A stretch of 64,000 nucleotides of DNA from Octopus sinensis (GCF_006345805.1 NC_043000.1:55242001-55306000); one strand, 5' to 3'. Shown: positions 803-61,320, numbered from the stretch's first letter. Notes: generated by a model not told the origin, from the sequence alone. Program-made: numbers and translations.

Positions 803-1899
803 TATATATGAAAAAACAAGTCAAAAATAGAAAATGCTAAAATAATTTTATAGTGAACATTTCAGTACCGGTTTCGGTCATTTTGAGACCTTTTCAACTG
901 TAACGATTAAATAATTAAATTTAGAAAAATTAGAAGAAAAGTTTTATTTAAAAGAATATTTCTATAGTAGTGTTCAGATTTAAGTGGCATTCTGCCTTTC
1001 TCTGACTCCCTTGTTTGCACTTGTGTGTTGGAGGTCGTTGTGAGTTCTTGGTAGGGTAGTAGAGGAAGAAAGCTGGTGAGGAAAGGGGGTGGGAGAATCT
1101 GGGAGTGCCCTGATGGTCGTATTTTGAATGATCAGTGGCGGCTGGCAGTCTCAGTTCAATTCAGGAGAATATTTATATTGACAGGCTTGTTTATAGAATT
1201 TGCGTAGGTGTTATACTAAAAAACATTAGTGACAAAGTTAAGGGGTAGGAGGTGGAGAAGTAGAAGGAGAAGAAGAAGAAGAAGAAGAAGAAGAAGATGA
1301 CGATGTTGATGATGATGATGATGAAGAAGAAGAAGAAGAAGGAGGAGAAGATGACGATGATGGTGATGGTGGTGATGATTATGACGACGATGATGATGAT
1401 AATGATGATGATGAAGAAGAAGAGGGAGAAGAAGAAAAAACAGAGAAGGGAGAATATGAATGGGTTAAAGTAGTGTGGTGTTGTATGACTTGAAGTTGGT
1501 ATGTTATGGATTATAGCTGTGATTTAAGCTGTGATTAGTAATGGATTCTTTGGAATGTAATATTTGTGTGTGAATATTTCTTTTATTCTAAAGTTGAGGT
1601 ATATTAATTGTTTGTCGTAGACCCGTTAAGAAGTGGCCTGTATTTTGCAATAAAGAGAGTTTCTTTACTTATTCGTTGTCTCGAGGTTGTATCGTCCCTA
1701 AATTGGTAGAGGGGGAAAATCCTGAAGCTTGGTGTTTTTTTGTTGGCGCAAGTATCTATGTGTTGGCTAAAAGCTATTTTTCTGTTTTGGGGAATTTTTA
1801 TCTGGGATCTGTGCAGGGCCATTCGTTTACGCAAACTATTTTTTGTTTGGCCTATGTACTGCTCTTGACACCCGGAGCAGGTTAGTGAGTATATTAGGT
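803..1899 (-). repeat. Inverted arm of the Penelope element (GIY-YIG C-terminus plus pLTR)
   Basis: ORF 1604..1834(-) is near-identical to the C-terminus of ORF 2699..3067(+). The UTR is mirrored with a few substitutions and microsatellite length changes. Confidence 0.95.
863..900 (-). ncRNA. Minimal type I hammerhead ribozyme, U3-A8 variant (inverted copy)
   Basis: The reverse complement reads CAG-TTGAAAA-GGTC-TCAAAAT-GACC-GAAA-CCGG-TA-CTG, identical to 3757-3794. Confidence 0.75.
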
Positions 1900-1918
1900 A
1901 TATTAGTGAGTATATTAG

Positions 1919-3067
1919 TCATAGGATATCTAGAGATCAGTCTGTATCGTAAGGTTCTAGAAAGATATGGCAGCCCTTTCTCCATCTACATAGAAAACAA
2001 CTGGAAGAGATATCTAGATGACTGTTTCATCCTTTGGCATAAAAGTATAGAAAAACTCATAGAATTCCAGGAAATTTTAAACGGACTGGACGTAAACATC
2101 CAATTCACGATGGAATATAGCCAGCAACAACTCCCCTTCCTCGATATCCTCATTAAAAAAGCTAATAATATAATAGAAACAGATATATATTATAAGCCTA
2201 CAGACTCTAAGCAATATCTTCCATTCAATTCATGCCACCCCAGACACACCAGGATGAATATCCCCTTCAACCTAGCAAAAAGGATATGCACTATAGTCTC
2301 GAACGCAAACACCAGAGACACACGACTACAAGAACTAAAAGATACCCTTATCACCAGGAACTATCCACCTTCACTTATTGACAAGTGCATTCAACTTAAC
2401 ATCAAGGAACTGAGACATCCCAAATCAAAGATAAACTTACAACCAAAAGCCTTACCATACATCTCCACACACAACCCTCTCAATAACGAAGCCTTCGGCA
2501 CCATCCTCCACAACATACCCCTCCTAAAAAAAGACCACAGAATGAACACAATCCTCCAAACACACACGATCATAAAAAGCAAGAGACAGCCTAAATCCAT
2601 GAAAAGTCTCCTAACACAAGCCCGAATTCACTCTTCAACACAGAAGCCGACAGTAAAAAAATGTGGAAGATCCAATTGCGGGATATGCGACTATCTAATT
2701 GAGGGATCAGAGTTCTCCTTCAAACGGACAACGGTTTACAGTGAAAGGCAACTTCACATGTGCTTCGGAGAACCTAATATACTCACTAACCTGCTCCGGG
2801 TGTCAAGAGCAGTACATAGGCCAAACAAAAAATAGTTTGCGTAAACGAATGGCCCAGCACAGATCCCAGATAAAAATTCCCCAAAACGGAAAAATAGCTT
2901 TTAGCCAACACATAGATACTTGCGCCAACAAAAAAACACCAAGCTTCAGGATTTTCCCCCTCTACCAATTTAGGGACGATACAACCTCGAGACAACGAAT
3001 AAGTAAAGAAACTCTCTTTATTGCAAAATACAGGCCACTTCTTAACGGGTCTACGACAAACAATTAA
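1919..3067 (+). pseudogene. Penelope RT (from just before the YLDD motif), Zn-binding linker and GIY-YIG endonuclease; one frameshift near 2720
   Basis: Motifs: WKRYLDDCF, IQFTME, LPFLDILI, TDIYYKPTDSKQYL..SCHPRHT, KCGRSNCGIC. After the frameshift: NLIYSLTCSGCQEQYIGQT...RKRMAQHRS...RISKE...YRPLLN. Confidence 0.93.
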
Positions 3068-60023: not shown

Positions 60024-61009
60024 GCTAAGTAACATTTTAAAACATTAAAAAAAATAATATATTAAAGAGCATATATTACAGGTTTTGCTTAGTGTTTGTT
60101 ATAACGTGAGGTTCGACCTTCTTACATCAGTATTGTTTCGCAGGAGAAATGTTTTGATTTCTTCGTGAAACCTAACCTACATAGATTTCCCTTTCTGTGC
60201 TGCTGGGTGTAGTCTATTTAGGGCCGTAAATAAGTGTTTTGTTTCACTTTCAATAAGTGTCTTGTTTCAATCTCAGAGATGTTGACTTCTGCCACAACAG
60301 TTTTGGGAGGCTTTTTACAATGTTGAATTTTCGCTGTCTTTCATTGTGTGCGTATTCATGTATATGCGTGTATTTTCAATGTGTGTGCGTGAGACGTAGT
60401 CCTTTAATGTACGGAGTTCAGTAAGTCTCAGAACAGTCAATAATTTTCCCGGAATTGACAAGTAGCATGATAAAGCACCTGACTTGTCTTCGAGAGCGTA
60501 ACGATCTAAAACCATGGCCACATAATGTAACTAAATGTGTTCTTTTAATTAAATCATATCATTCAGCTCAACCGATAGGTATAGGGGCTAATGCAGAATC
60601 GCACCCCCTTGAAAAACGAATTTATGTGAACATTTTTTTTCGGATTCCTACCTTTAACAGAGATTCTGAATATGCAAAAATATTGCCAGAATCCAATTTC
60701 ATCTTTATTACATTTCACTTATGATTTTTAGACTTTTCTAAGGGAGAATGAGGATGGGAAAGTACTGACGTTTCGAAGAGCAAAGTATAATACAAACAAT
60801 ACACTTATTTCAGGATCATCTCTGCACAGCCATTTTTTATTCCCTGTTTATTCTGCATATTCAGAATCTCTTATATGTAAATCGTAGGAATACGAAAATG
60901 TTTTACTGAAAAATTGCCGGTGAGGGTGTCAATGAAATTAATTGCATTCCCAACGCCGGAAGTCACCGCACGCCACTGATATATATATATATATATATAT
61001 ATATATATA

Positions 61010-61320
61010 CTTTATTTAAAGTTAGCAGAAATATAACAAAACCTGTTACCCAGAGTTTCACGTTCCCTTTCGTCGGACAGTTTTGTTAAAATAGAACAAA
61101 AATAACGTTATGGTCAAAACTAGTTGGTCTTAAGCATGCAATAAACAAAATAAACAAAATAAATGAATTCAATACAAATTCATCCTATTATAAAAATCGA
61201 GGGAAAACCTTAAATCGAAGAGTGGATTCAAAATACGCATTACAAATAATTGTATACGAAATTTAATTCAATTAATACAATTAATACATTAAAAATTAAA
61301 ATTAAAATTAAAATTTTCAC
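61010..61320 (-). mobile_element. pLTR fragment with a hammerhead, 3' end in (TA)n
   Basis: A hammerhead at 61034-61088 is followed by AATAAA and (TA)n; a second copy of the 3' end lies at 50314. Confidence 0.6.
61034..61088 (-). ncRNA. Type I hammerhead fold, core CCGACGA
   Basis: TAACAAAA-CTGT-CCGACGA-AAGGGAACGT-GAAAC-TCTGG-GTA-ACAG-G-TTTTGTTA, with a 12-bp stem I containing one bulge. Confidence 0.68.

What the first reader, a model, noticed from the sequence alone, without database searches (positions are those of the whole stretch)
863..61088. A set of Penelope terminal-repeat hammerhead ribozymes with divergent cores in one window
Seen: about six unrelated pLTR-like sequences each contain a stem I/core/stem II/GAAA/short or palindromic stem III/UH layout (3757 and 863; 41388; 51836 and 52041; 52361; half at 55063; 61034). 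Three sit directly downstream of GIY-YIG coding remnants. Known: PLE pLTRs carry minimal type I hammerheads that are thought to cleave as dimers. Inferred: this genome hosts a radiation of PLE families whose ribozyme cores (UUGAAAA, CCGACGA, UCCACAAA) would be missed by canonical CUGANGA searches, so it may be an undescribed ribozyme repertoire.
Basis: partly seen in the sequence, partly recalled or inferred. Interest (0 to 1): 0.8.

Follow-up and report, generated by a model that had tools for sequence, protein, structure and literature searches.

The report
Penelope hammerheads with variant catalytic cores
Six retrotransposon families in this window end in small hammerhead-ribozyme motifs; half have ordinary cores and one has a known variant, but thousands of copies across the genome carry a U4-to-C change reported to weaken cutting, so these are likely slow yet still-selected ribozymes (cutting itself untested).

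Summary
The six motifs are real: each marks a high-copy repeat family with type I hammerhead layout and a palindromic stem III. Four families (A, B, D, F) lie in sense downstream of Penelope-like GIY-YIG coding sequence. Only the two A copies (3757, 863) are intact in the window; the rest are decayed or truncated. CCGANGA (U4C) is real: 4,705 of 9,889 F-type motifs genome-wide, and U4C recurs in the B, C and c11 lineages. In a spaced 1 Mb sample it was the only uncompensated core change above background. Outside the window a non-coding family (6,395 pattern hits) has a swapped G3-C8 pair; this scan noted G3-C8 Penelope hammerheads before in other genomes. Verdict: new variant of a known kind (PLE minimal hammerheads). 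Cleavage is untested, and the closest paper (Lunse 2017) was not held, so novelty is provisional.

The parts
1771..3067 (+). Family A PLE coding remnant: C-terminal RT and GIY-YIG endonuclease in two frames, 5'-truncated (Neptune-like Cys linker; clade label recalled, not tested by tree)
   Evidence: ORFs; GIY-YIG PF01541 E 4.4e-6; 87% identity to RT ORF L213 (RVT_1)
3754..3797 (+). Hammerhead A, intact: core UUGAAAA 3760-3766 (U3-A8), 4-bp stem II, GAAA 3782-3785, palindrome ACCGGU, predicted cleavage after A3791
   Evidence: 20 of 20 distinct copies UUGAAAA
812..1899 (-). Inverted 5'-truncated copy of element A, with an identical hammerhead at 860-903 (core 897-891, H17 866)
   Evidence: inverted repeats; 95% over 1,207 nt
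41388..41430 (-). Hammerhead B, decayed: core UCCACAA 41424-41418 (private G5C); family cores UCGACAA and UUGACAA; palindrome AUAU; H17 41394
41598..41897 (-). GIY-YIG coding remnant about 200 nt upstream of hammerhead B
   Evidence: (17 of 30 B anchors have a sense PLE-protein hit)
51643..51926 (-). Inverted part of element C: tail (51643-51839) joined to a broken hammerhead piece (51844-51926; core CUAAUGA 51885-51879; no cleavage site)
52035..52092 (+). Hammerhead C: canonical core CUGAUGA 52041-52047, 29-nt stem II, palindrome ACAGCUGU, H17 52088; 3' stem I strand deleted in this copy; family mixes U4 and C4
52358..52447 (-). Hammerhead D: canonical core CUGAUGA 52441-52435, 59-nt stem II, palindrome broken in this copy (family ACAUAUGU), H17 52364
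52743..53368 (-). Degenerate GIY-YIG region of a Hydra-type PLE upstream of hammerhead D (an RT-motif piece lies inverted at 53476-53565 +)
55060..55124 (-). 3' half of hammerhead E, 5'-truncated inside stem II at a (TA)n run; GAAA 55077-55074, palindrome ACGAUCGU, H17 55066; family core CUGAAGA with 68-nt stem II
61034..61088 (-). Hammerhead F: core CCGACGA 61076-61070 (U4C, family-level), 3-bp stem II broken by a private change at 61068, odd palindrome ACUC-N-GAGU, H17 61047; element extends to about 61790
50315..50353 (+).
54183..54245 (+).

Best explanation
These are minimal type I hammerhead motifs at the 3' ends of several unrelated Penelope-like retrotransposon families, and they likely cut the element's RNA as dimers paired through their palindromic stem III. 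Shown: the layout, the palindromes, the link to PLE coding sequence (A, B, D, F), compensatory changes at the 3-8 pair and in stems, and U4C at family level. Inferred: source elements were selected to keep a working core; position 4 tolerates C and the 3-8 pair tolerates U-A and G-C, giving slower ribozymes that still suffice, perhaps with help from the element's own protein. Inserted copies then decay neutrally, which explains the odd cores of most window copies.
For: In 1 Mb of evenly spaced genome, hits are enriched only where 3-8 can pair: C3-G8 46 (shuffled 0.3), U3-A8 9 (1.9), G3-C8 4 (0.3); the other 13 cells hold 0-3 hits. With one mismatch allowed, no family-level change at G5, A6, A9, G12, A13 or A14 appeared, only U4C (42 of 56 one-mismatch hits over all loci; 3 against 0.2 in the 1 Mb). 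F-type: 4,705 of 9,889 motifs are CCGANGA (controls 18 and 0). F subfamilies differ at N7, loop 2, 11.1 and the palindrome centre while the rest of the core is fixed; C4 is in 25 of 34 copies of the older subfamily and 5 of 5 of a younger one, U4 in 24 of 25 of another. B lineage, first 100 of 117 listed, hand count: 48 UCGANAA, 38 UUGANAA, 14 other; 5 of 6 C3 copies have G8 and 89 of 90 U3 copies have A8. C lineage, first 100 of 3,482, hand count: 46 C4, 50 U4, 4 other. D lineage: 6 of 14 pairs change on both sides, 92.9% of cells paired against 43-52% when slid. All six family palindromes self-pair as duplexes and none folds as a monomer hairpin. Dimer cleavage, U3-A8 and low in vitro rates are published for PLE hammerheads (PMC4209133); C3G/G8C partly restores a PLE hammerhead that needs its protein (PMC11167929); a natural U4C viroid variant is slower but viable (PMC3088659).
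Against: No cleavage data. Hammerhead cutting was not needed for PLE insertion in vitro and no RNA-seq reads ended at the cut site in that study (PMC11167929). U4C 'considerably decreases activity in vitro'. The B palindrome gives no stable duplex (+1.6 kcal/mol) and E has almost no stem I. Two of the three full long-stem examples folded (D family copy L116, window D) and E did not take the hammerhead fold as monomer minimum-energy structure. The one-mismatch scan cannot see families with 4-nt or AT-only palindromes (B, c11, G), and my descriptors demand stems and palindromes, so cross-family pairing is partly built in. Covariation rests on 7 related sequences, and only 35 of 500 shuffles needed to reach 6 pairs. 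C has no protein link (0 of 57 anchors; 1 unrelated hit of 42) and E only one suggestive copy.
Confidence: 0.68

Rival explanations
1. U4C (and G3-C8) families are catalytically dead. They spread because cleavage is dispensable, and the rest of the motif is kept as a protein-binding or dimerising structure, or simply has not yet drifted.
For: Catalytic mutants did not affect insertion in vitro (PMC11167929); U4C lowers activity; the tight, abundant F subfamily sampled has U4 (24 of 25); family G copies keep an uncut hammerhead about 20 nt from their fixed 5' end.
Against: C4 persisted across F subfamilies of different age (84% and 93% pairwise identity) while tolerated positions changed; only U4C reaches family level among single core changes; the 3-8 pair covaries inside the B lineage, which is expected of the catalytic fold.
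Confidence: 0.24
2. All non-canonical cores are post-insertion decay of canonical or U3-A8 source elements.
For: True for the window's UCCACAA (1 of 36), CUAAUGA and the stem defects of C, D and F.
Against: C4 creates a CpG, and copies show CG decaying to TG and CA rather than the reverse (B: CG 22, TG 5, CA 6; F: CG 33, TG 8, CA 1); 4,705 exact CCGANGA matches; 91 of the first 100 G matches are G3+C8 and none C3+G8 (hand count).
Confidence: 0.03
3. Some families (C, E, G) are not PLE ends but other short non-autonomous repeats that carry a hammerhead, such as retrozyme-like elements.
For: No PLE protein upstream of C or G copies; E has over 2 kb of non-coding sequence upstream.
Against: They show the PLE insertion pattern: inverted 5' copy, a tail at one end, (TA)n targets (pattern described in PMC8557442); one E copy has a Hydra-type RT remnant in sense; they are not tandem arrays in the window.
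Confidence: 0.2

Closest known systems
Minimal type I hammerheads (min-HHRs) of Penelope-like elements (Cervera & de la Pena 2014, PMC4209133)
   Same: pLTR location, short stem I, GAAA-palindrome-UH, many families per genome, U3-A8 variant including the word UUGAAAA.
   Different: No C4 or G3-C8 core among the motifs I saw in Fig. S3 (part 2 of 3 of file 2; file 1 not searchable); their descriptor caps stem II at 7 bp and loop 2 at 10 nt, so D, E and 30 of 58 sample hits with arms of 43-87 nt fall outside it.
Hammerheads of Hydra-clade PLEs (Craig et al. 2021, PMC8557442, File S2)
   Same: Odd palindrome ACUC-N-GAGU, U10.1-U11.1 mismatch, (TA)n targets; Hydra-2_aMil has the same stem I and stem III letters as family F; F's endonuclease has the CxCX5C linker.
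   Different: Every core in File S2 is CUGANGA; none of the Hydra rows has a stem II arm near 60 nt.
Short-stem-III hammerheads of PLEs (Lunse, Weinberg & Breaker 2017, PMC5785218)
   Same: By title and by the review PMC6765202: PLE-linked, palindromic short stem III, dimer cleavage.
   Different: Unknown: the paper was not held. It may already list some of these core variants.
Natural core variants of hammerheads (Perreault et al. 2011, PMC3088659)
   Same: U3-A8, U10.1-U11.1 and a viroid U4C variant are described.
   Different: There they are rare single cases; here U4C is fixed in source elements with thousands of copies. G3-C8 is not named in the two sections read.
Poseidon PAc hammerhead of Anolis (PMC11167929)
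   Same: PLE hammerhead; engineered C3G/G8C partly restores cutting.
   Different: There G3-C8 is a lab double mutant; family G carries it naturally.

Membership tests
PLE minimal type I hammerhead | Lies in the 3' pLTR, in sense, downstream of an RT/GIY-YIG ORF | tested here: met
   A 26 of 40, B 17 of 30, D 11 of 47 anchors; F 4 copies at 1.0-1.15 kb, of 70 anchors, contiguous in L335/L349
PLE minimal type I hammerhead | Same, for families C and E | tested here: inconclusive
   C no link; E one copy with an RT remnant; both show inverted copy or (TA)n target
PLE minimal type I hammerhead | Type I topology with stem I of 3 or more pairs | tested here: met
   Family copies of A, B, C, D, F; E marginal (2 pairs)
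PLE minimal type I hammerhead | First core half CUGANGA or UUGANAA (A, D, E; U4 parts of B, C, F) | tested here: met
PLE minimal type I hammerhead | First core half CUGANGA or UUGANAA (C4 subfamilies of B, C, F; family G) | tested here: not met
   UCGANAA, CCGANGA, GUGAACA: these are filed as variants, not as standard members
PLE minimal type I hammerhead | GAAA, A15.1-U16.1 pair and H17 | tested here: met
   all six families
PLE minimal type I hammerhead | Palindromic, too-short stem III | tested here: met
   4-9 nt palindromes in all six; none folds as monomer hairpin
PLE minimal type I hammerhead | Stem II of 3-7 bp with loop of 3-10 nt | tested here: not met
   Met by A, B, F; not by C (29 nt), D (59 nt), E (68 nt)
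PLE minimal type I hammerhead | Site-specific self-cleavage as dimer | not testable with these tools
   no raw RNA reads were offered
Hydra-clade PLE | C-terminal GIY-YIG with CxCX5C linker | tested here: met
   F lineage, L335 ORF; definition
Hydra-clade PLE | Placement in an RT tree | not tested
   no RT phylogeny built; clade labels for A, D, E rest on motifs
Non-LTR retrozyme | Head-to-tail tandem of short non-coding units, each with a type I hammerhead | tested here: not met
   window copies are single or inverted pairs; definition

The most novel reading that the evidence does not exclude
This genome's Penelope-like elements have repeatedly evolved and massively amplified attenuated hammerheads (U4C in at least four lineages, a U3-C4-A8 double variant, a natural G3-C8 swap, and 50-85 nt stem II arms) that still cut, tuned slow or made protein-dependent so that uncut RNA can serve as template. 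This would be a natural allelic series for testing why PLEs keep hammerheads, and tens of thousands of ribozymes invisible to standard searches.
Probability: 0.35. Interest if true: 0.68.

Novelty: new variant of a known kind. Interest (0 to 1): 0.45.

Why it matters
Why PLEs carry hammerheads is open: cutting is slow in vitro and was dispensable for insertion in the one reconstituted system. Here sister subfamilies differ at U4/C4 and at the 3-8 pair, have countable copy numbers and relative ages, and keep every other core letter. That makes 'is catalysis under selection, and how slow may it be' directly testable with natural pairs. It also widens the hammerhead consensus used for genome searches: my version of the published descriptor caught 4 CUGANGA motifs in the 1 Mb sample where a wider one found 58.

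Tried and rejected
Rfam scan: no hammerhead at gathering level. Window-only relaxed descriptors: chance level beyond family A. Reading the hairpin at 52400 as D's core: rejected once the alignment was extended and canonical CUGAUGA appeared upstream. 51836 as a whole ribozyme: rejected. PLE protein link for C: 16 longer stretches fetched, 3 of them for C, none linked; the RT in L325 belongs to another element with its own canonical motif. Protein link for G: none in 30 position-ordered loci. Expression and cut ends: no RNA holder listed and only contigs offered, so nothing is claimed; one search was used only to read letters. The F tree (69 rows, 93 columns) separates two groups with 100/97 support but is unrooted and mostly unresolved, so the direction C4 to U4 is not claimed from it. 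Literature: 10 searches; 'U4C' with hammerhead found only PMC3088659; 'G3-C8' only PMC3884650 (an engineered variant); CCGANGA with Penelope, G3C8/U3A8 and 'positions 3 and 8' found none. Not held: Lunse 2017, the 2017 Terminon paper and the 2012 RNA review. No covariance model was built.

Full report
Setting. The window is G000:C4:55242001-55306000 of a 2.7 Gb, microsatellite-rich animal genome; I took it to be an octopus-like cephalopod from recalled features, which was not tested. It holds remnants of several mobile elements.

Observation. All named sites are present. Alone, the window supports only the pair at 3760(+) and 897(-): 2 hits against 0.33 in shuffles; looser settings are at chance, and Rfam scores the pair at 19.7 bits, far under the gathering score. 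I therefore collected the 30 best genomic loci per site and aligned natural copies. All six are high-copy families with type I hammerhead layout and a palindrome between A15.1 and U16.1: A 6 nt, B 4 nt, C, D, E 8 nt, F 9 nt. Only the two A copies are intact in the window. B has a private G5C; the direct C copy has lost its 3' stem I strand; the inverted C copy is cut off after GAAAC; D has a broken palindrome; E is 5'-truncated; F has a private stem II change.

Link to Penelope-like elements. Sense PLE-protein hits end within 1.5 kb upstream of 26 of 40 A, 17 of 30 B and 11 of 47 D anchors, and in the window itself for all three. F is continuous with a GIY-YIG frame bearing the Hydra-clade CxCX5C linker in L335 and L349 and has such hits in 4 of 70 anchors. 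One E copy has an RT remnant 2.6 kb upstream. C has no protein link but shows the inverted 5' copy, one-sided tail and (TA)n target described for PLEs.

Family cores. Among distinct copies: A UUGAAAA 20 of 20; B UCGACAA 20 of 36; C CCGAUGA 14 and CUGAUGA 14 of 40; D CUGAUGA or CUGACGA 30 of 40; E CUGAAGA 21 of 23; F CCGACGA 28 of 41. These samples favour copies like the query, so I used genome-wide patterns left open at the core. F-type motifs number 9,889 (control 18), of which 4,705 are CCGANGA (control 0). For B, the first 100 of 117 matches give 48 UCGANAA, 38 UUGANAA and 14 others (hand count); for the C lineage, the first 100 of 3,482 give 46 C4, 50 U4 and 4 others (hand count). C4 makes a CpG, and copies show it decaying to TG and CA, so C4 was in the source elements. 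F subfamilies with C4 occur at 84% and 93% pairwise identity, a U4 subfamily at 92%. In contigs of four public runs under four organism codes, no other letter reached 10% at the C4 position, while the window's stem II letter was replaced in nearly all (contigs collapse copies, only those at least 80% alike were laid, and one run gave 4 contigs).

Repertoire. I fetched 100 evenly spaced 10-kb stretches. A strict scan gave 44 hits against 1.6 shuffled. With positions 3, 4 and 8 open there were 76 hits: C3-G8 46, U3-A8 9, G3-C8 4, against 0.3, 1.9 and 0.3 shuffled; the other 13 cells held 0-3 each. Position 4 was U 55, C 3, A 2, G 1 against 1.6, 0.2, 1.3, 0.9. So most motifs are canonical. Thirty of 58 had stem II arms of 43-87 nt, about 11 of them tandem copies in two loci. 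Over all loci there were 46 clusters, 17 in two or more loci; some singletons may be chance. Allowing one core mismatch, only U4C formed families (this scan is blind to 4-nt and AT-only palindromes). The long stem II of the D lineage covaries: 6 of 14 pairs change on both sides in 7 sequences, 92.9% of cells paired against 43-52% when slid, though related sequences inflate such counts.

Family G, outside the window, has core GUGAACA with a 7-bp stem I: 6,395 pattern matches (control 1), 91 of the first 100 with G3 and C8, none with C3 and G8 (hand count). It is a short non-coding unit with a fixed 5' end about 20 nt before the ribozyme, often in fold-back pairs; no ORF was found.

Mechanism. 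Shown: layout, palindromes, PLE link for four families, covariation, family-level variants. From the literature: two such motifs pair through the palindrome into a double hammerhead and cut after H17, slowly (PMC4209133); one PLE hammerhead cuts only with its protein, is partly rescued by C3G/G8C, and is not needed for insertion in vitro (PMC11167929); a viroid U4C variant is slower but viable (PMC3088659). Inferred: source elements were selected to keep a catalytic core, with C tolerated at 4 and three Watson-Crick pairs at 3-8, giving slower enzymes. The inverted A pair cannot form a double hammerhead in one transcript, since one copy would be antisense; dimers need head-to-tail copies or two RNAs. 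The main rival is that C4 and G3-C8 motifs are dead and cutting is dispensable.

What is known. UUGAAAA stands in Cervera & de la Pena's Fig. S3, with about 1,300 U3-A8 motifs in Schistosoma. Craig et al. list Hydra-clade hammerheads with F's architecture, all with CUGANGA. I found no report of family-level U4C, U3-C4-A8 or natural G3-C8 in PLEs in 10 searches of the held library, but Lunse et al. 2017, the closest study, was not held. Papers seen: PMC4209133 main text parts 1-2 of 4, supplement file 2 parts 2-3 and passages (file 1 not searchable); PMC8557442 passages, section 11, supplement parts 2-3 and passages; PMC3088659 passages, section 8 and part 1 of section 11; PMC11167929, PMC6765202, PMC7229834, PMC6466107, PMC11014351, PMC3884650 passages; bioRxiv 2026.07.22.740005 part 1 of 5. 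Two earlier notes of this scan describe G3-C8 motifs behind PLE RT genes in other genomes; I did not test them, and family G was found before that look-up.

Verdict. Interest 0.45.

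Noticed in passing
L216:5790-6130 (G000:C2:155005790-155006130); loci L281-L310, L357-L386: Family G: young non-coding fold-back element with a natural G3-C8 hammerhead core, 6,395 pattern matches; fixed 5' end about 20 nt upstream of stem I; no autonomous partner found.
   Followed up: partly
L194:2848-5300 and L236:316-2770: Tandem arrays (periods about 535 and 489 bp) of units each with a canonical hammerhead and 51- or 68-nt stem II, part of each array inverted; retrozyme-like or multi-pLTR insertions.
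   Followed up: no
L018:2404-2450: Family c11, not in the window: CCGACGA in 11 of 28 copies, a further U4C lineage.
   Followed up: partly
L237:915-1050: Two hammerheads 73 nt apart head to tail with the F-type odd palindrome and canonical core; a ready natural dimer.
   Followed up: no
window 3730-3759: Stem I of family A ends in a U-rich tract plus CAG, like a 3' splice site; in D. virilis Penelope an intron ends at helix I.
   Followed up: no
window 57876-59513 and 59556-60023 (+): Long ORFs with DUF4371 (E 4.6e-21), likely a fairly intact hAT-type DNA transposase (label recalled).
   Followed up: no
window 42869-44454 (-): Fragments of a non-LTR retrotransposon RT (RVT_1 E 7.7e-21); a 557-aa open relative lies in L321.
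   Followed up: no
L327-L354 (young F subfamily): The U4 subfamily of F closes stem II with an A-A mismatch and has only 2 pairs under a GCAA loop, whereas C4 subfamilies have A-U or A-G there.
   Followed up: partly
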